A stretch of DNA of 64,000 nt, taken from the NCBI RefSeq assembly GCF_021028975.2, contig NC_059426.1, forward strand, positions 140,864,001 to 140,928,000. The letters run 5' to 3'. A model generated the notes under the pieces. That model saw nothing but the letters and a program-made list of their open reading frames with translations, was not told where the DNA came from and ran no database searches. A program made the translations under genes and the position numbers. Positions 7,109 to 46,500 of the stretch are shown in pieces; the stretch's first letter is position 1, and each line of letters starts with the position of its first letter. Source of the DNA: Sphaerodactylus townsendi (Eukaryota).

Positions 7109-8623
7109 CTTAAATATGACATAGCTTGTCTTAATTCAACCCTTACATGAAATCACAAATCAGTCTCTGAAATAGTTCAGTTTTCAGTTGCCATCTCAAG
7201 ACTACCATGGAAGGGCTCCAGAAAATTTCCCTGAGGAGGAAGTTTGATCGTTTCGGTCCCTGTGCAGAAAAGTTCCTGACACCCAACGCTGCTCAGATCA
7301 CAGAGACCCTTGACTACCCATGAAAGGTTCAGCAGAGACAGTATTTAATTTCATGGACCTGTAGTAGCTGAAAAAGTAGCACCTGTTCAGTTCCTCATCA
7401 TGTCACAGCATTTTCAGGCTCTTTAACTGATGGGAACTTCCTCTTCACACTCTGACATGAGAACAGATCAGAGACAGGCTGTATCAGCTACATTTGAAAC
7501 AGAAGTATTTCTTGCCACTGCTCTTTGAGGAAGGCAGTTTGATGTAGTCAGTGCATTTGAATCAAGTCTGTTCTTCTTTGGTCACTCGCTTGAGATTCTT
7601 GTTTCTCTGGCTTTTTTCTTTTTTGGGGGGGGGAAGGGGTACTGCCTCCTTTTTTTAAAAACTTGTCAGATGGAAATGCACATATACACCAAATTACATA
7701 TAAGCAGCAGTTATTTGTTGTGACCAACCACTGAAGGGTGAACATCTGCATCACTGGCTGGCATTACTGTGTGCAGTTGTTCTCCTCATGGCATCTCCAT
7801 GCTGGGAAATGCTACCACTGTTTGAAAACAATCCTACTTATAGCTACTGTAGTGCACAAAAGAACTTCATCGTAATCAGAGGGGCTCATGTCCCCTCAAT
7901 ATTGAGGAAATATTTGCATGCAAAAATTTAAGAATGCCTAACTGGCAGTCATTCCCACTGAATAGAATTGGACTTACTTCTGAGTACATCAGCTCAGGCT
8001 TGCTTCACAGAGACATGCTAAGTAGATCTATCCATAAGCCTACTCAAGTCTACTCAGTTGGGCTTACTCCCAGGAAAATGTTACTACCTTTTGTTTTATG
8101 TCACTTCAGATATCGGCTCCTGTAAATTAGAAATAGTCAGAACCCCTCATCATCACTACATCAGATCCATGATGTGCATGTAATTGTTCACAAGCATTTG
8201 CTTGACAAAATGCTCTATTTTCTGTTTCCTTGGTATTAATTTGCATCTCTCCAACATACAATGCCACTAGCCTGCAGCAGGGACTAGTCCCTAAAACAAA
8301 ACACGCAAAATCTATTCCAAACATATTAAGAAGCCATTTAGTAATGATTTAGTGACTAAAACCATGCTATGTGATGCAAATAAACATTTTAGTAACTTAA
8401 GTATTAACACAAATCTACTTTAAACTTCGGCTTAATTGTCTAAACTATGAACAAATGTTTACGTACTGTCAGCTTTCCAATTTCGAAAAAGAAAAACACA
8501 ACAGTAGTAAACTTTAGTACTGTAACCGGAATGTGACGCCCCTCATTCCCTACAGCTCAGCTTGTAAGCCCAGAGGGAAAGCCCCACCTGCGGCCCACCA
8601 GAGGGAGGAGGCGGAGCCACAGC

Positions 8624-8816
8624 GGGCGGCTCTATGCAAATAAGGTGCGGCACGGCATTGTGGGAAAGCGGGGAGCACCGCGATCGTCCGAGTTTTGTGG
8701 GGTCAGTTGGCACCCAGATCGGTCGCTCTTTGCTGTCAGCGAGGCGCCTCGCGATCCTGAGGCATGGACGGTGTGAACAAAAGCAGCGGTCCGTGAGCCG
8801 CCGTGGCTTGTAAAGT
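8624..8816 (+). promoter_or_regulatory. U1 copy A promoter: DSE (GC box, octamer, SPH/Staf-ZNF143) and PSE
   Basis: GGGCGG at 8624-8629. ATGCAAAT at 8634-8641 (-225 to -218). SPH motif on the opposite strand, TTTCCCACAATGCCGTGCCGC, at 8647-8667. PSE-like GCCGCCGTGGCTTGTAAAGT at 8797-8816 (-62 to -43). Spacing is that of Pol II snRNA promoters. Confidence 0.85.
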
Positions 8817-8858
8817 AGTCGTCGGCGCTGGCTAACGGCTTTCGGGGCCGAGGAGAGC

Positions 8859-9022
8859 ATACTTACCTGGCAGGGGAGACACCTTGATCNNNNNNNNNNN
8901 NNNNNNNNNNNNNNNNNNNNNNNNNNNNNNNNNNNNNNNNNNNNNNNNNNNNNNNNNNNNNNNNNNNNNNNNNNNNNNNNNNNNNNNNNNNNNNNNNNNN
9001 NNNNNNNNNNNNNNNNNNNNNN
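8859..9022 (+). ncRNA. RNU1: U1 spliceosomal snRNA gene, copy A (nt 32 onward masked as N)
   Basis: ATACTTACCTGGCAGGGGAGACACCTTGATC at 8859-8889 is the U1 5' end, including the 5' splice-site recognition sequence. It is followed by 148 N. The 3' end is inferred from the 164-nt canonical length. A full snRNA promoter lies upstream. Confidence 0.88.
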
Positions 9023-9671
9023 NNNNNNNNNNNNNNNAATAGGTTTAAATATTTTGCGTTTTCCGTGTGTGCTTCGATCCCTCGTGTTGTCTTTGTCCAG
9101 GTCCTGTAGACTTTGTCTCGCCGTTTTAATTCGAAGTTACTTCAATTCACACTCCTGCTGCCCAACAAATCTTTCATGCCAATATCATGCAAAAAGCGAA
9201 GCTTAAGTGCCATTATCTAATGGCCAAAGGAAATTGGCCTTGTGTTACCACTACCACTATGAGACCAAGACCATGTGATTTCAACCCCAGTGCAATCAAA
9301 TGGTCTTCTCTGTTTGCAGCTCACACCCCCCCCCCCGCCATTTCCATTTTAAAAGTACATGAATAAAGTTCGTTTCCTATAATCTGCTCCCCCCTTCTTC
9401 CACACCCCTTAGTATGGTAAAATTGAAAACTAGTTTAAATTGGGGATGACAACGATGCTGCTTTTATAGAATTGGATCATATGGAAATTTTATATAATCA
9501 GTCGCCATCACTTGGTTATATGATTAATTTAATTTTCATGGGGATTGTTAGTGGTTATTTTTAGGTTGTATTGTATTACTGTACATTTTAATAATGTGTG
9601 TAAGCCATTCTGAGCCTGGCCTTTGGCTGGAAAGAGCAAGGTAACAAACTTAATAAAATAAATTAATTAAT

Positions 9672-11450
9672 CACAATGAATGATTTTATTACAGCCGCAA
9701 AGCCAGCAAAAAGAAAACGAAAACAGATTCAATTTATACATATATACAAACATCCATGGCATAATACCCATACCCAAAAGAAGCATCAATTTACAACATT
9801 ACAGTCACCATCATCTAGTGCTGCTCCCTGTCTTAACAATCTGTGCTTGCTGTATACTAACATACAAAATTTGGCTACCTTCAGAGATGTAAAGGAAACC
9901 TCGTCTTCCAATAAGATTCTTGTAAGAGCTAAATCAGAGTCAACTGCGATTGGATTAATATAATGAATTAACAATGGTTGAATTAATGACTTCCTTTCTG
10001 CTTTATAGAGTTCACAGTGCAGTAGAATGTGTGACTTAGGGTCCACTTTTCCTGAATTGCAAACACAAACTCTACTGGACTGTGGAATTTTTGGAAATCT
10101 TCCTGCTAAATTGGCTGATGGAAAAGCATCAAAATGGGCCCTAGAAAAGGCCCAGTGACATTTTGTAGATACAATATTAAATCAATAGGGGGATGCTGAA
10201 ATTCCTGACCAGGATTTCAATGGTTTATATAACAATGGTAACAAGGAGTAATTTGTTTGCATTTTGATGTCATTAAATCTTTGATAAACCAAGACTGTTG
10301 CTCTATGGAAACCCAATTCCAATAGTTGCATAGGATCCAACCTGCATTGTTTAAGTTTGAGTATTATCTTTTCTGACCAACTTGGATATGGTGACACTGC
10401 CAGCAAGAAAGGCAGTAAACCCAGAGGCTGGAGAAGAACTTTAAGCCAATATTTAATAATCAGCCTCCAAAAGGTTGTCTCTACTTTCACCATCCCTGCT
10501 TCTTGTCTTAACACTGCATTAGCTGTACATTTAGGTGTATTAAACAAAGCTCTAAGGAATGCAGATAAGACTCTAATAAAGTAAAATCTGTTACTAGTGC
10601 CAGTGGAGCTCCATAGGTAAGTTGAGCCAAGGATTTAGCTTCGAATAATCTAATTGCAGGTGGGATAAATCCACCCCCTTGCGATCAAAAATATCTCAAA
10701 ATTGCCTGTGAGCTCCTTTGGGCTGTGTGTGTAACTGATTGTATATGGACCATGAGTTTCCCATTATACTGGAAAACCACCTCTAGGTATTTGAAGCACA
10801 ATCTGATATCCAGTCAACTGTCAATTCTGTTTCTTAAATTTAGCATTAAAGTGTCTTGTCTTGTATAATTAATATTTAACAATTCCTCTGCACATTTTTG
10901 AGCAAATATCTTCAGTGCTCTTTTAAGCCCCACTTACCAGGGACAAGCATAGGTGCATGGGTATCTTTCTTATGGAAACCAGTTATGAGTATATTAACAT
11001 GGAGGTTAAACAAGTGGGGTGCTGAAAGGTACCCTTGCCTCACACCTTTCTGAGTAGAGATGGGCACAGTTAGGTGACCTTCATGTGAGAACCTTACCTG
11101 TATGGTTGTATTCTCATGTAATTTAACAATTGGTTGGAGAAGGTGTCTATCAATATTAGTCTCCTCTAGCTTTGCCCAGAGACAAGTGCGTGTTACATTG
11201 TCAAATGCGGCCTTAAGATCAACAAAGCCCGCATATAGAGATCCTTTTTTAATATGTACATATTTTTCTATCATATATTTTAATATCAGGCAGTGATCCA
11301 TTGTCAAGCGGCCTTTACAAAAGCCAGCCTATTAATCTTCTAGTTTCTCTGTCCAACCGTGCAAGAAATTTTTTTGCTCAGATATTTGGTGTATAATTGG
11401 TTCACAACATTGAGGAGGCTAATTGGTCTGCAATTAGCTGGTTCGGAGAA
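9672..11450 (-). mobile_element. Decayed 5'-truncated non-LTR retrotransposon (RTE-X-like) ORF2 fragment
   Basis: Minus-strand RT motifs EPANCRPISLL (about 11410-11445), FVDLKAAFD and GVRQG..P.LFN (ORF 10912..11307). Downstream PKCTANAVLRQEAG...KYWLK (ORF 10182..10547). The 3' end has AATAAA and a short repeat near 9690. Frameshifted. Confidence 0.8.
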
Positions 11451-12048
11451 TAAATTATCACAAATGTTAAACAGCGTCCGGTGTGTAAAAATGAAGGGTT
11501 GGATAAGCACCTGAGCAATGTAAGGTGAAAGACAGTCTTATACGCAGAGTAAAATGACTAAACTACAAACTAACATGGCGAAACAAACTTGAATCTGGCA
11601 CAGTATATGACTCGGAAAAAGACAACACCAGTTTTCAATTTTACCATACTAAGGGGTGTGGAAGAAGGGGGGAGCAGATTATAGGAAACGAACTTTATTC
11701 ATGTACTTTTAAAATGGAAATGGCGGGGGGCGGGGGGGGGGGGTGAGCTGCAAATAGAGAAGACCATTTGATTGCACTGGGGTTGAAATCACATGGTCTT
11801 GGTCTCATAGTGGTAGTGGTAACACAAGGCCAATTTCCTTTGGCCATTAGATAATGGCACTTAAGCTTCGCTTTGGCATTGATATTGGCATGAAAGATTT
11901 GTTGGGCAGCAGGAGTGTCGAACTTCAGAAGTAACTTCGAATTAAAACGGCGAGACAAAGTCTACAGGACCTGGACAAAGACAACACGAGGGATCGAAGC
12001 ACACACGGAAAACGCAAAATATTTAAACCTATTNNNNNNNNNNNNNNN

Positions 12049-12212
12049 NNNNNNNNNNNNNNNNNNNNNNNNNNNNNNNNNNNNNNNNNNNNNNNNNNNN
12101 NNNNNNNNNNNNNNNNNNNNNNNNNNNNNNNNNNNNNNNNNNNNNNNNNNNNNNNNNNNNNNNNNNNNNNNNNNNNNNNNNGATCAAGGTGTCTCCCCTG
12201 CCAGGTAAGTAT
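12049..12212 (-). ncRNA. RNU1: U1 spliceosomal snRNA gene, copy B (nt 32 onward masked as N)
   Basis: GATCAAGGTGTCTCCCCTGCCAGGTAAGTAT at 12182-12212 is the reverse complement of the same 31 nt. 148 N at 12034-12181. The 3' end is inferred. Confidence 0.88.
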
Positions 12213-12254
12213 GCTTTCCTCGGCCCCGAAAGCCGTTAGCCAGCGCCGACGACT

Positions 12255-12447
12255 ACTTTACAAGCCACGGCGGCTCACGGACCGCTGCTTTTGTTCACAC
12301 CGTCCATGCCTCAGGACCGCGAGCCGCCTCGCTGACAGCAAAGAGCGACCGATCTGGGTGCCAACTGACCCCACAAAACTCGGACGATCGCGGTGCTCCC
12401 CGCTTTCCCACAATGCCGTGCCGCACCTTATTTGCATAGAGCCGCCC
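12255..12447 (-). promoter_or_regulatory. U1 copy B promoter: PSE and DSE
   Basis: PSE at about 12255-12274. SPH TTTCCCACAATGCCGTGCCGC at 12404-12424. Octamer ATTTGCAT at 12430-12437. GC box CCGCCC at 12442-12447. Confidence 0.85.
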
Positions 12448-14599
12448 GCTGTGGCCCCGCCTCCTCCATCTCGGGGTTTCCGAAGTGAGAGGCGGGGGGT
12501 TTGCAGCCGATGGATTGAGGAAGGGCGACGGTCGAATTCTTTTGTTTAATGACAGCTACTGTGAGCAGGAAAATGCTTTAAAAAAGCAGGAGAGAATCTG
12601 CTAGAGGACTTTGAAAGCAGAAGGACACAAACGTCAGTTGCCGTTGTTTTATTTCTGAAAGTTAAAATAAAATAATTTTTCAAATACTATACTAAAATCT
12701 GGGTATTATCTACAACACGTGATACGGATCTGGTCAGTGTCTTGGTGGAAAATCAGTTGTCTGCTGCCTTGAAGTGTAAGGACGAAAGGCTTGATTTTCA
12801 GGTAACAAATGAGATCCTTTCACAAACGAACCAAAAAAATCCTAGGGGAAATCCGGAGCTAGTTCTATTAAATATTTGTATTTTCTAGAGGTGCCACTAA
12901 ATTATTGGCCACCGCTAATTTTTTCCAAAACCTCTGCAAGGAACATCTTTCACCCGCTGTCATCACCCAATTGGGGTTATTGCTACAGGCCCATTGATGT
13001 CAAAGGATTTACACAAGTGTGTTTGCGACCGCACTGAGAGACTTCTTACAAAATAAAATAAGGTTGACTTTCTCTATAGTTCAATTTTTCTCGATGCATT
13101 ATTCCATTTCACTTAAGCATGGAAAAACATTTTTGGCCAGAACAGTGAATGAATGTTAACAGAGGTTTGAGAAACAGAAGGGTGGGGGTGGTAATTCTCG
13201 GACTGATACTCTCTGAAAATAAAGGAAACAATTATGAAAGAAAGATTCACGTGTGTCATTGTTAAACTGTATACCCTTTTCCATTCACCCCTTGCATTTC
13301 ACTCCAAATGTCACAGCAAGTGAGACATTCTTTGCTCTTGCCGGACAAAGTGTATTTCTGCAGTTAAGCTCAAGATTCAAAGGTCCATGCAATGTATTGA
13401 ACTATAGCAAGTTTGCAGACTCCGTGTTTCTACCATCCCATCATCTGTTATGATCTGAACACTTCATTTGCTGGCTTATGATGCTTGAAAATTCCATAGA
13501 TTGGTCGTTGTTGTTTTTACAAGACAGAGGTGGACTCCAACGGGCACACATATAACACCTTCAAGATGTTATGCATAGCATTTGGGGAAGAACTTTCCAC
13601 AGATCTCTTCCCCAAAAGGACTCATTTCTCTCAATCCAGGTTTTACAAACATCACCGAACTTGTGACCTTTTTGCACAGTCCTGGGGTGGAGGCACTCCC
13701 ATGCGAACACAACAGCCAGGAGACATTTTATTTTCTTCCCTTCCATCTGGTTACTTTTAAGTTCTGCTACCATCCGCCATTTCAGGAAGAATCTGCCCAC
13801 CTGCCAGTCTGTGCAGTTCACCCAGCACATTGTGGGCAGATTCTCTGAGCACCCACCATTTCACAAATCCTCCAAGCACATTTTCTTCCCGTGGCAGCAA
13901 GTATGACCACCATTTCACTCATAGATCTACAGCAACACATTCATTATTGCCTGGCCATTGCAGAAAAGTCCCTTTTTCTCTTTTAAAATTTTTGTGTATG
14001 TTAAACATTTGAAGCTACGCAGGTGCGAGACAATCAGCATCGCTGAGGGGTTCGTTTCTGTATGTCTTCACAGCTAGGCCTGCATTGAAAAAAAATTAAA
14101 AACAGAAAGAAGTGTTTCTGTGCAAAGGTGTGAAAGCAACCCAAATTGTTTCCATGAGCTCAAATTGCTTCCTGAACACATAAAGGGCACACATGCGAAT
14201 GGAAAAAAGGAAAGTGGGTTCATGTGTAATAACTGCAACTTGTTATAAATATGCTGTGCAGAATCCACTAGAGAGAGATCTCTCACAAATTTTCTCCATA
14301 AAATTCAAACTGCTGACCAATGGGGAAAGCAACTGGAGGAAGCCACATTGTTGGCACTTGAAAGAAAATGCCTGTGAGGAGTATGTCAGACATGAGAGGG
14401 GGTGGTGGGGGATGAGTGCGCGTATGCCAACCCAAGTATCTAATGAAGAGCTGTTCTCCTTGTGAGTAGGCAAGCAGTCTTGAGCTGAGCAGGTGGTTGC
14501 CCACTTGGGGGTCTCTGTCTGAGGATGGCCAGATCCCATTTCCACCTGCCTAGTAGGGAGCTCGTAACAGGCAGACTTAGCTGGAATTGGGAAGGAATT

Positions 14600-15480
14600 A
14601 AGTGAGCTGTAACCCAGTCAGCCGGCCGGGGCAGAATTACAGGACCATCGCCGTTATAGAGGAGTGCTTGGGCGGAGAGGCGCTGAAGGAAGACACCCCC
14701 ACCCAATGCAGTAATTTGCAGCCCCGGCCCGCGGGGATCACCAGCCGCTGGTATAAAACAAACACCTCTCCTCCCCTCCCCTCCCGAATCAGAATCCACC
14801 TAATATATTTTATTAAGCTCGACCCACTTAGGAGTTTTTTTTGTTTGCTTTTTCCAGACTCGAAGATTAGGCCCCGGTTTTATGAAACAGTGGTACGACT
14901 GTCCCTCTAAAACTATCAAAATGACTCAAAAGAACGCACAAGCTTCCAGATCCTGCAGCGCGCTTTTGCAATCAAACGCGCCACCAATGTAGCAACAAGC
15001 CGCAGAGGGGATGGGAAAAGGTGAGAGAAGGCTTATTATAATGAATGGCTCCACCCGCTTTCTCTTTCCCGCCATCCTCTTCGACCAGTAGAGGCCTGGC
15101 ATGCGTTTTCATGGGAGAAGGTCGTGTGTGTGACGTCACCATATGGCGCCGACATCCGAAGCCTGCTTCCGTGTGGTGGTGGAGGAGGCGACTGCGGTGT
15201 CGCCTGGCGATTGCGTGCGCGCTTCCTCGCCGGCCAGTGGCTACTCTTCTGGTGCCGCTCCGGGAGCCGCGGGTGGTCAGAGCGCGCCGGGAAGAGGGAG
15301 GCGGAGGGGAAGTCTGGAGTCTTCCCTCGCTTGCAGGAAAGGCTTCGGGCCCCACCGGGCTGCTGATGCGGAGCGATGGGCGAACTGCCGGAGTAGTTAG
15401 AGGGCCGTTGCAAAACTCCGCGTGTGAATGAAGCGGGGACGGGTTCAACAGGCGAGTAGTGCTCCAGGCTGCAAGGAGGG
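14600..15480 (+). promoter_or_regulatory. CpG-island promoter, probably of PROSER1
   Basis: CpG-rich. Full CRE TGACGTCA at 15131-15138, YY1-like ATATGGCG at 15141-15148 and ETS-like CTTCCG at about 15166. Candidate donor TGA/GTAAGT at about 15550. Confidence 0.65.
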
Positions 15481-18195
15481 GGCATACAAGCTGGCTCGTT
15501 AACTAGGGAGTAAACTTCATTCATCTCAGTAGTAGAAATGTGTTTCTGAGTAAGTGGGTGTGCAGAGTGATCCTGTGCACCTTTTATTTGGAAGCAGGCT
15601 GCCCTTGGATTAATTGCAGGTTAGACGTCATGTCGGTTTGCACTGGCCTTGGGCCATTTACAGGCTTCCTGCCTAACTGACCTCGCTGGGTCTGATTCTG
15701 CACTGGCAACTCAAACTGGTTGCGTGAACCCGTGTTGTCTGTGCCACCGTTTGTGCCACCGGCGGGAGCAGGGGCCATCTGGGATCACTGGGATCCCAGC
15801 GACAGGAGGCAGCACGGTTTGCACAGAGAACACTGTATGTCCATGCAAACCACGCAGTTGAGAATCATCCCCACCCAGTTACCAACACAATATGGTGGCT
15901 GCCTATTATAGAATCCACCACAATGGTGGGCAGAAGGAGTTGGGAATAGAAAACTTCCTGCTTGCCATAGTTTTCACAGACAAGCAAGAATTGACTGACA
16001 CCTAGGTTAATGGAGAAAAGTCATTAATTTAGCAACTTTCATTTGACCCGGGTTCAGCCAAAAATAATAGGTCAGAAGCATTTGGGGGGTGAGTTCTGTG
16101 GGACCATCTCCCCCATAACACTTTGAAGAAGGGCCTGAACCTGTTACACTTGGCCTGTGCAAAATCACCATGAGTCGTTACAGTAAAGAGCAGGGTAAAA
16201 ATATATTAATGTGATTTGCAGGAATATCTGATTAGACATCTGGAATTTTTTTGTTTGTGTAGGTGCCATAGCGTTGATCGGCCTTTAAGCTTCTTTCAAT
16301 ATGTTTACATGAACTGGATTCAAGAAGCTTATATTCTACTTGTAGAGGACCTCAGCATTTGAGCAAGTGTTTTCAACTCGGGTTGAATAGGTTTGTGCCA
16401 GATGAGTTATTCTAAAAGTATAGTTGGAAAAGGAGGATTGGTAGTTCCCATGGCCTCCAGTGAGTACTATGCTAAGGTTATGTATTTTGATATAGTCCAG
16501 TTAATGTTGACAAGGTCTGGGTTCTTCCTTTCTAACGCTGGTTAGCTGGGATAATTATGATTATGTTCTCTTCAACTTGATAGTGTTAAGACAAGACTTA
16601 CAGGGAAAGACCAGAGGTTCATATGAGCAGTTCTCTCGTGACCAATTAGATGCTCTCCAAAGTTTGTGTAAGTTTGTTTATTTTGATTTCTCCTTTTTCA
16701 GGCTCATACATGAAGGTAACAACCCTTTCCTAGGTAACCTGAATTCAGTGGCATGTTGATTCTAAACTTGGAGGTTCCACTGAGCAATCATAACTAACAG
16801 GAACAGTTGTCTTCCATGAATTTTCTCATCCCCTTTGAAAGTGAGCTCTGGTTATCTCTACATCTGGGATAAGCTAACTTATTTCTTCGAATTCTGCTGC
16901 CCGTCAATTTCAGTGGGGGCCCTCTGCTCTATTGTTATGTGCAGTTGATCTTCCTGTCCAGTTTATCTATATGAATCGTATCGATCGCTGTCTCCCACAT
17001 CCTTCATAGTTTGGAAAAAATCCTGTTACAGAACAGTTCTTACATCTGTAGACACATAAATGATTATTTTACCAGTTTCAATATGCTGTAGCAGGTTTTT
17101 TAATATTGTTAAAGTAGTTATACCCCATGTTTTTTCTTGGCTCAAGGAAAGAAACTTACATGTGTTTGGAAGTATGTACACCCAATCAGCAAATGTGGAA
17201 AAGATAGCTTTATTCTTTCTGTTTAAAAATTCATGTAAATAAAAATGGAAGTTCAGAAACTGAAGTTACTGATCTCTGGGGAAGTCATTTTTAAAAAATC
17301 TTAAAATAGTGACATTTTCAAGGGAACCTTATTGTTTATGTGGCTTGTGGCAGCTGATTGGATCTGTTTGCTTCAACACTTCCACTGTGCAGTGATGATT
17401 CTTGACTGAAGAAGTCAATGTTTCAAAGTTTAACAATATTCAGTTTTAATGAGAGTCTTTAATGTTGTGACATGTCCTCTTTCAGAGAGCAGGATGCAGT
17501 TTAAAGAGAACTATAATTGTGATGTGTATGCTAATTCCCTGGTGCAAGGTGTTTTTGCATTGTTTTTTGGCAATGCTGGCTGGAGATAGAACTAGGTTTC
17601 TATATGAACTTTTAGTTTTTGCCAGTTGGAAAAAGAACGGAGGGAAATGATTGGTACTTTAGGGATGTAGCAGTGTGCTACTCACTTTTTTAAATGACAA
17701 AAATAAGCCAAACACACCATTTTATATGTTAATTGTATTATGCATTCTATGTTCTTTGTCATAAGTGTGTTTTCTAGATTGGATAAGAAAATACACTTTA
17801 CAAGTTTCCATCCTTTCACCACTACCACCTTCAGAAATCTTACATGTTTAAGTAAATGGCTTTAGAGAAGTATTGTGTAGTTGACTGATGGCAGCATTTG
17901 GCTAATATTAATTTACCAGCCTTAGATAGGAGTTGAGCTTTCTTCTGGGAGATCATGTAAAAAGCTTGGGGGTATTCTTGAATGTAGCCTTATTGATGGA
18001 TGCATAGGTCATTACTGTTGGCGGGGGCATCTTTGTGGTCAATCTAACTTGCATTTAAATTCATGGGACTGTCCATTTGCCTACAGTCAGGTCAAAGGCA
18101 TTTTCTGTGGCAGGGCTGGTCCTCTGGAATGATGTACCAGAGTGAGAGTGGAGGGCATCTTCACTTTCCACATTCAGGAAGTCTTGTCAAACAGT

Positions 18196-18770
18196 GGTTG
18201 ATTCTGCACAGGGCAGATATAATGGGTGCAGGATGCTATGTAACCTGTTTTTGGGGTGACTTCACACAGGTCCCACTTCCCAAAACAAGTCTGCCCCATT
18301 TTATTTCCCTCAACCCAGGATTTTCAAAAATTGCTAAACCAGCTATCCTTTTGCAAAATCCCAGGTTGAAGCCGCTCCCACTGGAGCTGCCAAGCAAGAG
18401 TGGCTTTATTCTCCCCCCTTCCACCGTGCTGTCCATGGTCAGGGAGAATCCGCCTGCAGTTGCAGGAAGGTCCCTTTTTCTTTTTTTAAATTTTGCATGT
18501 TGCATAGGTGCAACTACACAGGTGCAACCGACTGTATTGTGGAACAATCAGCATGGCATTGGGGGTACACTTCTGCATGCCTGTGTAGCTACGCATGTGT
18601 TGCAGGAAATAAAAAGGGAAGTATCTTTGTGCGAAGACACAAAAGCAACCTGGATTGTTCCCATGGGCTCCAGTCGCTGCCTGCATGGCACGCATGTGAA
18701 CGCGAAAAAGGAACACGGATTCCTTTATAATCACTGCAGTCCATTGTACATTTGCTGTGCTGAATCAACC
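18196..18770. mobile_element. Older Harbinger-like MITE
   Basis: TIRs GGTTGATTCTGCACA...TGTGCTGAATCAACC flanked by AGT/AGT. The interior resembles about 13590-13780. Confidence 0.6.
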
Positions 18771-19089
18771 AGTCTTATTTCAGAGGATTTTTGTAGCATC
18801 TTAATTCCAAAGTTAAATCTGAAATCAAGCAAAGGATTTGAGACATCGAACTTCAAGATTATTCAAGTTCTTCTACTAAATACTTCAGGAACAAGAAACA
18901 AGTGTTGTCAAACTGTTTAGCTAACTTACTAATTTGATTGTTTAGCATTCAGTTCAGCAGGGTGTGAAGTATAAAGAGATGCTAATGTATTTTCTGATTT
19001 TTCTTTTTGGATTTTTCTTCCACAGAAGGCAAGTTTACAGCAAAGGGTGCCTGGAACAGACAAGGGGCTGTGCCCTTGAAGAAAGCAAG

Positions 19090-36952
<17,863 letters not shown>

Positions 36953-43500: not shown

Positions 43501-46500
43501 GGCATACCATAATACAGAAAGTGGGTTTCAAAAGTAGAAGACAGTGCTGTGGAACTCTTGAGTGTTTCATCTACTTCCATGTGATTTAAATTTTCCCATC
43601 TTATCTACAGTGAATCAACTTGTTGTGTGACCTTACAGCCCTCTCTCTCTCTCTCTCTCTCTCAGCCTAATTTACTTCAAGTGTTGTAATGACCAGAGAA
43701 AATGCAGTAGTATTAATGCATGGGTCAAAAGAGAACCTCAGAATTTATATTGTCAATCATTAATAACTTAATTAATCCCCTTTCTTTTCATAGCTCTCGG
43801 GATGCCTCCCTGCCCCTGAAGGATATTCACCAACTCTGAGATGGCAGCAACAACAAGTGTCTCACTTTTCTGCTGTTCGCCAGGTGACTCTCTTTTTCCT
43901 ACTCCAGCCCTGAAGCCATTCTTACTTGGAAGGTGCCTAATCTCATAATACGCATTTTCAAGAGAGTCACTCATTACTTTGTATTGTCGAAGGCTTTCAC
44001 GACCGGAATCACTTGGGTGCTGTGTGGTTTCCGGGCTGTATGGCCGTGTTCTAGCAGCATTCTCTCCTGACGTTTCGCCTGCATCTGTGGCTGGCATCTT
44101 CAGAGGATCCTCTGAAGATGCCAGCCACAGATGCAGGCGAAACGTCAGGAGAGAATGCTGCTAGAACACGGCCATACAGCCCGGAAACCACACAGCACCC
44201 AACTCATTACTTTGTTTATGGAAACAAGGCTTTGGGAACCTTCACTTCTGTTTTTTTCTTGATATTGCAAAACTAATAAAAATCATGATGTTAGGGCTGG
44301 GATCCTGTACATTTTTTTCTGCTTGCACTTCTCTCCATCAGCTGCAGAGCCCACTCCTCTTGTGCTGGACGCATATTGGCTCCTTAAAAGACAGTGTTGC
44401 ATGAGCAGAAGTGTGCTGCGTAACAGCACTGCCTCAGGAGTGACGAAAGAGGTGTACAAGTCAAAAGAAAGTTTAGGAGGTTCATCATTTGATGAAAGCA
44501 TCTTAGTTGGTACATTGAACATGTTGTTGGTGGAATTAGGCGGATTATTATTTTTTTATAAACTTGCACCTGAGTAAAAACAGTTCTGAAGAAAAAGGGA
44601 TCATTTTATTTTTAGGTAATATGTCTATTACAAAGAGTCTGTGAGTGAAAGGGATACCTCTCCTCATGCCATTTGCCACTTGTGTAAATATCAGTATTTT
44701 TAATTGGGTTTTAAATATCTACTTGATTAATTGGGGGCACCTTTAGAATTGGTCAGAAGGCTTTTAATCAGTCAATCTGAATAACCGTACTAAACGCCAA
44801 AACCGTAGAGAAAATTTTCTAGATTTTACTTTTTCAATTTTCCAGAGTGTGAACAAACACAGGGACCACTGGAAGTCCCAGCATTTGGACAGTAACGTTA
44901 CAATGGTGAGTATAATTTGACATTGTAATCTTGATCAACAGATCTCTTGCTCAGGAATAATGCAGAGCAAGCTGTCTTGAGAACTACAGCCCCTTCTGGA
45001 ACATTTCTTTTTTTCTTCTCATTTAGTAATGCTGAGATACTACCACAGTACAGTATCTTATTGTAAACTAAACATACAGGATTAACATTTGTGTGTGAGG
45101 GTATTTCATGTAACCTTGGGGGAGGGGGCCCGCAATATTTTGTTTTATTAAAATAAGAAAAACATCTTGTTTGCTTGCTGCCCTCAGCCCAAATCAGATG
45201 ACGAAGAAGGCTGGAAAAAATTTTGTCTGGGTGAAAAGTTGTATTTAAATACAGGTGTTCAAGTATCCAATGATGAAAATCAAGGAATTGATTATGTACA
45301 GGTGAGTAGCAAGCACAAAAGTTGCTAGCCTGTACATCTACAATTGATTTAGATTTCCTACGAATAATTTTGTATCTTAACGAATTCTGATGATTTCCCC
45401 CTCCCCACCCCCAGGTTGGCTTTCCTCCACTCCTGAGCATTGTTAGCAGAATGAACCAGGTATCTCTGTTACTGTCATTCTTAAGTGGGGTTAGTGGCAA
45501 GGTCTTTGTAGCTCTTCTGCTACTTATGTAGACATCCTTCCATAAGGGTAGTCTGGTGCACATGATAGTGCCACTTAGACATGGAACACGTGAGCACGCA
45601 GGCCTTACTTTCACACAACAGCCTTGTCATCTGCAGGGGCAACTGCTCAGTCTCCTTCTGTCCCAATTAGTGGGGAGTGAGAGTTTGTGCAGGCACTTCA
45701 TTGGTGCCGTTGTCTCTGCAGATGATCAGGCTGTCACATGGAGCCAAGAACGAGGCCCACACGCTCACTGTCTCTCCTCATATGTTTGGTGAATGCAAGC
45801 TAATACTTGCAAAAATTATATATAGTGTCATACAGATAAGCTTGATGAAAATCATAGTGTGATTATAATTTACCCAAAATGATTTTTACATCTGTATGTA
45901 TCTAGGACTATTTGTCCCTTGTAGTTTGATCCTCCAGTTTGTGGGCCAATGGAAAAAATGTTTAGGGTAGACTCTGCCAGCTACTACCTCATAAGATAAC
46001 CAAATATGAAACTGCATTGGAGTCAGTAGCTTTGCATGTGAACCTAAGTAGAGGTTGCTATTTATTTAAATACCTGGTTTCTGGATTACTCCCTAGTGTT
46101 TATGTGAAACATCAGATACAAGTATAGTTCTTATCTGATAATGCAATACAAGGACTATGAGGAAGCGTTCCTATAGAGAACTGTTTTTCATAGCTTCTTC
46201 TTTTCTTCTTAAAAGGCAACAGTAACCAGTGTCTTGGAATATCTGATAAACTGGTTTTCGGAGAAGGAATTTACTTCAGAACTGGTACCTTTTACTTCAT
46301 GTGTTCATGTTGAAAAGCAAACTATCCCACTTGAAGCTTAGCTGAATTAGAAATATTAGAATTAGAAATTAATTAGAAATATTTTAGAAATTAATTATTT
46401 TGGAAATTAATTAGAAATATTTGATCGCTTGCTTTGTTACTACATCCCTACCCCCACTTTTCATCCATCATGAAACAGAAGGAGACACTCATGAGAGTTA

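What the first reader, a model, noticed from the sequence alone, without database searches (positions are those of the whole stretch)
8600..12471. Two convergent, fully promoted U1 snRNA genes in an inverted repeat whose edge coincides with the DSE
Seen: two U1 5' ends point at each other, each with GC box, octamer and SPH at about -220 and a PSE at about -55. Arm homology stops about 25 bp upstream of the DSE GC box, so the near-identical unit is essentially the transcription unit plus about 400 bp of 3' flank. The arms differ at several sites, which argues against a simple assembly echo. Inference: these are real expressed U1 genes rather than retropseudogenes, kept similar by recent duplication or arm-to-arm gene conversion. 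The repeat could also flip the 2.2-kb spacer.
Basis: partly seen in the sequence, partly recalled or inferred. Interest (0 to 1): 0.7.

Follow-up and report, generated by a model that had tools for sequence, protein, structure and literature searches.

The report
Converted inverted pair of U1 genes
Two intact, identical genes for the U1 splicing RNA face each other 3 kb apart, the pair is also present in two related organisms, and the copies have most likely been kept alike by repeatedly copying from one another; this is a clear example of a known process, not a new system.

Summary
Confirmed. Arms 8600-9434 and 11627-12471 form an inverted repeat, each with a full-length U1 gene (Rfam 172.4 bits, bodies 164/164 identical), octamer, STAF site, GC boxes and a CpG-rich promoter. 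Contigs from public runs show both outer junctions in this organism and in two relatives (flanks about 3.5% diverged), so it is neither an assembly echo nor a duplication private to this organism. In relative C, one promoter contig at 1.95x and 2.04x flank depth differs from both arms here at 4 sites: concerted evolution, most likely gene conversion. Faint in-register likeness beyond the outer edges and a displaced, diverged piece of 3' flank suggest an old duplication whose right copy was overwritten from the left. The spacer is mostly a decayed LINE. Expression and spacer flipping are untested. Closest known: the human convergent pair RNU1-27P/28P (14q13); orthology not shown. The scan noted an inverted U1 pair before, in a fungus (e1-7522342, unchecked). 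New member of a known kind; interest 0.35.

The parts
8211..8591 (+). Left upstream flank, shared only with the upstream of the U1 gene on contig C17; holds two extra octamers (-620, -485)
   Evidence: 330/381 = 87% to C17 upstream; 2 matches in the genome, itself and C17; octamers
8353..8480 (+). Faint in-register likeness to the right flank 12610-12736: likely remnant of the old duplication
   Evidence: score 49, 83/117 aligned letters; 0 of 300 shuffles, 2 of 796 and 0 of 796 real tiles; weaker under other windows (anchored tests)
8600..9434 (+). Left arm of the inverted repeat (-259 to +576)
8610..8667 (+). Left DSE: GC boxes -249 and -235, octamer -225, STAF/SPH site -210
   Evidence: consensus from PMC5493778
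8789..8815 (+). Left PSE region (about -70 to -44)
   Evidence: position and conservation among paralogues; match to human consensus is at chance level
8859..9022 (+). Left U1 snRNA gene, 164 nt
   Evidence: RF00003 172.4 bits at this place in G000; Sm-like site at nt 125
9335..9662 (+). 330-bp dispersed repeat fragment that runs unbroken across the left inner edge; only its first 98 bp are in the right arm
   Evidence: 85% over 330 bp to L033 on the left, 98 bp on the right
9677..11454 (-). Decayed, 5'-truncated LINE-type retrotransposon filling most of the spacer
   Evidence: RVT_1 E 2.1e-12; many copies, best 86-89%; family matches stop at about 11454
11546..11626 (-). Diverged copy of U1 3' flank +228..+295 directly behind the right arm: likely the right gene's own old flank, displaced
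   Evidence: score 47, 52/68 aligned letters; 0 of 500 shuffles, 0 of 970 tiles; 4 of 2154 in the reciprocal test
11627..12471 (-). Right arm of the inverted repeat
12049..12212 (-). Right U1 snRNA gene, 164 nt, identical to the left
   Evidence: RF00003 172.4 bits; 0 differences
12256..12282 (-). Right PSE region
   Evidence: identical to left
12404..12461 (-). Right DSE: GC boxes, octamer, STAF/SPH site
12472..13100 (.). Right outer flank, single copy in the genome
   Evidence: 1 match, itself; joined to the promoter in organisms A, B and C

Best explanation
These are two intact, identical, convergent U1 snRNA genes, likely both expressed, from a likely old inverted duplication, and most likely kept alike by repeated arm-to-arm gene conversion. 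Shown: the anatomy; both outer junctions in three organisms; promoter letters that are shared by both arms within an organism but differ between organisms. Inferred: breaks in one arm are repaired from the other, 3 kb away on the same chromosome; the homogenised zone runs from just above the DSE (-255) to +576 and is tightest at -3..+285. Upstream of -255 nothing kept the copies alike, they drifted below the likeness that recombination needs, and the edge froze there. Inferred with less certainty: one repair event started near +227 of the right gene, copied the left 3' flank out to +576 and ended without homology, rejoining at a short microhomology; this cut the 330-bp repeat after 98 bp and pushed the right gene's own old flank inward. 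The likely function is plain dosage: these are 2 of 5 intact U1 genes found in the genome.
For:: in organism C (2 of 2 samples) a single promoter contig 12258-12467 has depth 103 and 94.7 against flank contigs of 52.2/53.3 and 46.6/46.4 (1.95x, 2.04x), and both the left and the right flank join it; B shows both flank junctions too. That contig has 7 differences to the right arm; 6 are listed; at 4 (left positions 8674, 8718, 8722, 8764) both arms of the window agree against C. Were these 4 on one arm only, depth would be 1.46x. A fifth site (8840) shows the same pattern (203.6 of 203.6 depth, 2 contigs, one sample). At 8840 3 of 3 and at 8764 2 of 3 paralogous U1 promoters carry C's letter, so the window's letters are likely derived and spread to both arms. 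Right-flank divergence is 12/353 (B) and 13/353 plus one indel (C). Without exchange 0.095 shared parallel changes are expected in 210 nt, P(4 or more) 3e-6, or 2e-4 if all were transitions. Within the genome the trees disagree: upstream flank left-C17 87% over 381 bp, left-right only a faint 117-letter patch; promoter left-right 98%, left-C17 80%. Repeat cut at the right inner edge and displaced old flank. Such non-homologous endings of long-tract conversion, with microhomology, are described in mammalian cells (PMC5104497, abstract).
Against: Expression is not shown. PSE and 3' box match the human consensus poorly. Evidence from relatives is short-read contigs, which drop alleles and cannot phase arms; both C samples come from one study, A and B from another, and X1 may be the assembly's own sample. 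In the A and B runs the collapsed contig is 2.2 to about 4 times flank depth, not 2; GC bias is a likely cause (the single third-locus contig is about 1.5x in B) but extra copies in B are not excluded. Only 2 of the 5 sites could be polarised. The age evidence is moderate: outer-flank likeness gave 76, 6 and 127 of 300 shuffles for 100, 300 and 1000 bp, 102 and 8 of 500 in anchored tests beside the 0 of 300 result. The microhomology at the junction is only about 4 of 5 letters (read by eye).
Confidence: 0.8

Rival explanations
1. The 840-bp unit was duplicated once, shortly before organisms A, B and C split, with true breakpoints at -259 and +576; it survived because it happened to hold the whole promoter, and conversion has acted since. 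The faint outer match and the inner remnant are chance.
For: The right inner edge cuts an older repeat sharply, marking the left as donor; the outer step from 98% to background is abrupt; outer-flank significance depends on window and scoring.
Against: Two separate remnants, both in register or at the junction, each beat shuffled and real-sequence controls; the right flank also matches the C17 upstream at the same segment (0 of 300 shuffles; not independent of the left match).
Confidence: 0.12
2. The arms are homogenised mainly by crossovers that invert the spacer (a flip-flop), with conversion as a by-product; the spacer orientation is polymorphic.
For: Geometry allows it: 840-bp arms, 98-100% alike, 2.2 kb apart. 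The left gene's upstream is 87% like C17 while its 3' flank is not (66/112, background level), which some past exchange must explain.
Against: No read or contig shows a flipped form, but none could. In a human Y palindrome 146 conversions went with only 3 inversions (PMC3723533, abstract). The spacer holds only retroelement debris, so a flip would likely change nothing.
Confidence: 0.05
3. A recent duplication private to this organism, or an assembly echo, with no exchange between arms.
For: Arms differ at only 9 substitutions.
Against: Both outer junctions are bridged by contigs in A, B and C; flanks of A and C differ by 3.7% while C's two promoters collapse into one contig; P(0 arm differences in 210 nt) without exchange is 4e-4.
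Confidence: 0.02

Closest known systems
Human RNU1-27P / RNU1-28P pair at 14q13
   Same: Two identical 164-nt U1 genes, + then - strand, convergent (GRCh38 chr14:34546713 and 34556225; PMC12317402 supplementary table 3); inside a segmental duplication, copy number two in nearly all haplotypes (passages). The window lies in a block with SEC23, GEMIN2, TRAPPC6B-like exons and, 2.75 Mb away, EAPP; that these genes are on human 14q13-q21 is recalled.
   Different: Genes 9.5 kb apart in human, 3.2 kb here. The human pair lies beside EAPP (recalled); here no U1 was found in 100 kb around EAPP and the pair sits beside SEC23/GEMIN2. Orthology is not shown.
Concerted evolution of multicopy snRNA genes (primate RNU2 array, U1 families)
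   Same: Copies more alike within than between species (PMC4291461, passages).
   Different: Here only two copies in inverted orientation, not a tandem array, and the zone of exchange has visible edges and remnants beyond them.
Linked U1 gene pairs of rat and mouse (Watanabe-Nagasu 1983, PMC325836; Marzluff 1983, PMC326371)
   Same: Recalled, not read: two U1 genes a few kb apart in opposite orientation with near-identical flanks of a few hundred bp. Only the titles were seen, in a reference list.
   Different: Cannot be stated; the papers were not held.
Arm-to-arm conversion in Y-chromosome palindromes (P6)
   Same: Inverted arms homogenised by conversion, inversions rare (PMC3723533, abstract).
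   Different: Arms there are far longer and above 99.9% alike; here 0.84 kb, 98-100%. No G+C bias is evident at the two polarised sites (G to A, G to T), too few to judge.

Membership tests
U1 snRNA gene (RF00003), Pol II snRNA-type | Full-length match to the U1 covariance model | tested here: met
   172.4 bits, positions 1-166, both copies, at these places in G000
U1 snRNA gene (RF00003), Pol II snRNA-type | Intact 5' splice-site-binding end and Sm site | tested here: met
   5' end; Sm-like site at nt 125, recalled motif (a first, wrong pattern matched no locus)
U1 snRNA gene (RF00003), Pol II snRNA-type | DSE with octamer, Sp1 boxes and STAF site near -220 | tested here: met
   STAF 2 mismatches, 0 of 300 tiles as good
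U1 snRNA gene (RF00003), Pol II snRNA-type | PSE near -55 | tested here: inconclusive
   4 mismatches to human consensus, chance level; conserved at the same offset in 3 other loci
U1 snRNA gene (RF00003), Pol II snRNA-type | 3' box 9-19 nt after the gene | tested here: inconclusive
   best match at +9 with 3 mismatches
U1 snRNA gene (RF00003), Pol II snRNA-type | Transcription into capped U1 RNA | not testable with these tools
   no RNA holder listed
U1 retropseudogene | No promoter, truncation or decay, poly(A) or target-site duplication | tested here: not met
   CpG-rich promoter, full length, no poly(A)
Concertedly evolving gene pair | Both copies predate the split of species | tested here: met
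   both outer junctions in A, B, C
Concertedly evolving gene pair | Copies within a species closer than orthologues between species | tested here: met
   4 sites (5) shared by both A arms against a 2x-depth contig in C; contigs, not phased reads
Invertible (flip-flop) segment | Both spacer orientations observed | not testable with these tools
   only short-read contigs were served
Orthologue of human RNU1-27P/28P | Same immediate gene neighbours | tested here: not met
   pair lies by SEC23/GEMIN2, 2.75 Mb from EAPP; no U1 in 100 kb around EAPP; human neighbours recalled

The most novel reading that the evidence does not exclude
The converted zone is set by the active snRNA transcription unit itself: breaks that arise in the open, heavily transcribed U1 gene start arm-to-arm repair, and the proteins bound at the DSE fix the outer limit at -255 in three species. 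The pair, in the same chromosome block and geometry as human RNU1-27P/28P, would then be a natural, long-running recombination reporter in which tract edges, a fossil aborted tract and inversion rates can be read from population data.
Probability: 0.15. Interest if true: 0.6.

Novelty: new member of a known kind. Interest (0 to 1): 0.35.

Why it matters
It annotates 2 of the 5 intact U1 genes found in this genome and shows in one 4-kb stretch how snRNA copies stay identical: species-specific promoter changes sit on both arms, the edge of exchange lies at the enhancer, and a likely aborted conversion tract is preserved. Concerted evolution of snRNA genes and convergent U1 pairs are known, so a specialist would find it neat rather than surprising. 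It offers a small, phaseable locus to measure conversion against inversion outside sex chromosomes.

Tried and rejected
Rfam on the window itself: 0 hits, because the bodies read N there. No RNA holder listed; this says nothing on expression. Run X8 (organism D, share 0.07, depth about 5) was laid and dropped as uninformative; of 8 runs listed 6 were laid (X1, X2, X4, X5, X6, X8), X3 and X7 were not. Tables were cut (553 differences, 1093 loose ends and 3985 pieces not shown), so the left inner junction was seen bridged only in A (33 letters in the arm; 19 in B, none listed in C); at the right inner junction contigs of A, B and C run 33, 33 and 35 letters past 11626, letters not shown. No likeness between the inner flanks in mirror register (223, 81, 116 of 300 shuffles). 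The remnant 11454-11626 does not match the 3' flanks of the other four promoter-bearing U1 loci (351, 89, 362, 466 of 500). The other four loci are single genes: no second U1 and no U1-bearing inverted repeat in 9.9 kb around each. Insertion of the pair by a transposon: no support; the spacer LINE is 11-14% from its best relatives and stops about 170 bp short of the right arm. Positional orthology with the human 14q13 pair: not supported. A genome search with DUF4476 found nothing though a direct Pfam scan did. The protein atlas was unavailable. Three 1983-84 papers were not held. Paper searches for a description of this locus or arrangement (listings only) gave none on reptile U1 pairs; the library lacks most older and subscription papers, so this is weak.
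Full report
Observation. The inverted repeat is there. Arms run 8600-9434 and 11627-12471 around a 2192-bp spacer; visible letters give 677 matches, 9 substitutions and 6 indel events. The window is G000:C2:140864001-140928000 of a 1.81-Gb genome. The gene bodies mostly read N in the window; the same places in G000 are full-length U1 at 172.4 bits, identical over 164 nt and over the next 121 nt. Starts are 8859 (+) and 12212 (-), so the genes converge.

Are they genes? Each promoter has CpG observed/expected above 1 (window 0.32), GC boxes at -249 and -235, an exact octamer at -225 and a STAF site at -210 with 2 mismatches, which 0 of 300 control tiles reach (consensus from passages of PMC5493778). 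The PSE and 3' box fit the human consensus no better than chance or poorly (4 and 3 mismatches); the PSE region is, however, conserved at the same offset in three other U1 loci. The Rfam search of the genome scored 42 of 35242 candidates and gave 5 copies at 169 bits or more (C13, three on C2, C17) and a promoter-bearing variant on C4 at 125 bits; the count is a lower bound. The other 24 of the 30 loci examined are decayed and lack the conserved PSE stretch. Expression could not be tested.

Is it real, and how old? Eight runs of four coded organisms hold the left promoter region. In A, contigs bridge the left outer and left inner junctions with 0 differences and the right outer junction. In B and in both samples of C one contig carries the right flank into the promoter and another carries the left flank into it, branching at 12468. 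The right flank differs from the window at 12 of 353 letters in B and 13 of 353 plus an indel in C. So the pair and its outer edge predate a split of about 3.5% divergence.

Concerted evolution. In C the promoter is one contig (12258-12467) at 1.95 and 2.04 times the depth of the flank contigs. Of its 7 differences to the right arm 6 are listed: 2 are sites where C equals the left arm, and 4 are sites where both window arms agree against C. If these four were on one arm, the depth would be 1.46 times; if any single one were, about 1.8 times, so the joint claim is firmer than each site. Site 8840 behaves alike. At 8840 and 8764 paralogous promoters mostly carry C's letter (3 of 3, 2 of 3), and B's collapsed contig carries the window's letters (G-bearing depth 68.1 of 255, equal to the third-locus contig): two changes likely arose after the split from C and reached both arms. 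Without exchange, 0.095 such shared sites are expected (P 3e-6 to 2e-4 for four). Limits: contigs drop alleles, C is one study, and A and B depths are 2.2 to about 4 times flank, likely from GC bias but not proven.

Traces of an older state. First, the left upstream flank is 87% identical over 381 bp to the upstream of the C17 gene and occurs nowhere else, whereas the right flank shows only a faint in-register patch (8353-8480 against 12610-12736; 0 of 300 shuffles, 2 of 796 and 0 of 796 real tiles). Other windows and anchored alignments were mostly not significant, so this is moderate evidence. In the promoter the order is reversed: left-right 98%, left-C17 80%. Second, a 330-bp repeat crosses the left inner edge unbroken but is cut after 98 bp on the right: the left is the donor of that part. 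Third, directly behind the cut lies a diverged copy of U1 3' flank +228..+295 (0 of 500 shuffles, 0 of 970 tiles, 4 of 2154 in the reciprocal test). The simplest reading, an inference, is that repair of the right gene copied the left flank from about +227 to +576 and ended without homology, pushing the old flank inward. PMC5104497 (abstract) describes such endings in mammalian cells. The remainder of the spacer is a decayed LINE on the minus strand.

Mechanism. Shown: anatomy, shared junctions, species-specific letters on both arms. Inferred: an old inverted duplication; repeated conversion between arms 3 kb apart; a zone of exchange that holds where likeness has been kept (promoter, gene, near 3' flank) and stops where it fell away, just above the DSE. 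Whether selection on the promoter or the transcription unit itself sets that edge is open; the first is the plainer reading. Flipping of the spacer is untested and would move only retroelement debris.

Comparison. The human RNU1-27P and RNU1-28P genes are an identical, convergent pair 9.5 kb apart at 14q13 with stable copy number two (PMC12317402, passages and supplementary table 3; its PDF supplement was not held as text). The window's neighbours are SEC23, a DUF4476 and Pro/Ser-rich gene (the name PROSER1-like is recalled), GEMIN2 and TRAPPC6B-like; EAPP is 2.75 Mb away with no U1 in 100 kb around it, so orthology to the human pair is not shown. Concerted evolution of snRNA families is established (PMC4291461, passages); conversion with rare inversion is documented in a Y palindrome (PMC3723533, abstract). 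Opposite-facing U1 pairs in rat and mouse are recalled; only titles were seen.

Verdict. Observation confirmed; conversion supported over recent duplication; expression and flipping open. New member of a known kind, interest 0.35.

Noticed in passing
G000:C2:142075098-142075261 (L039): Third U1 gene 1.2 Mb away with a body identical to this pair, proximal promoter 89% alike, distal 71%, no exact octamer; present in B and C. Possible longer-range conversion partner.
   Followed up: partly
G000:C17:4048942-4049878 (L040): U1 gene whose upstream 770 bp is 87% like the left flank here, with a 48-bp identical block holding an octamer, while its 3' flank is at background likeness. Either a partial duplication or conversion, or a conserved far-upstream element.
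   Followed up: partly
G000:C4:136928231-136928394 (L044): Variant U1 (18 differences, no Sm-like match) that keeps a CpG-rich promoter and PSE region but no octamer: candidate variant U1 gene or decaying gene.
   Followed up: partly
L006-L030: Of 25 promoterless U1 matches, 19 stop at nt 32-39; of those 19, five show 11-16-nt direct repeats right around the fragment (L009, L011, L013, L020, L024): short 3'-truncated U1 insertions with a preferred end.
   Followed up: partly
window 44007-44208: Perfect-centre palindrome of 101-bp arms, 98% complementary, no spacer, made of a dispersed repeat.
   Followed up: no
window 15100-34573: Gene with a DUF4476 exon (23885-24061) and a 617-codon Pro/Ser-rich frame (32720-34573) between the U1 pair and GEMIN2; looks PROSER1-like, a gene recalled from another human chromosome, so possibly a paralogue lost in mammals.
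   Followed up: partly
L068:6595-9788 and L069:1375-3551: Inverted repeats of about 300 and 370 bp, 90-97% alike, near the C17 and C4 U1 loci but not containing U1; probably two copies of a mobile element.
   Followed up: no
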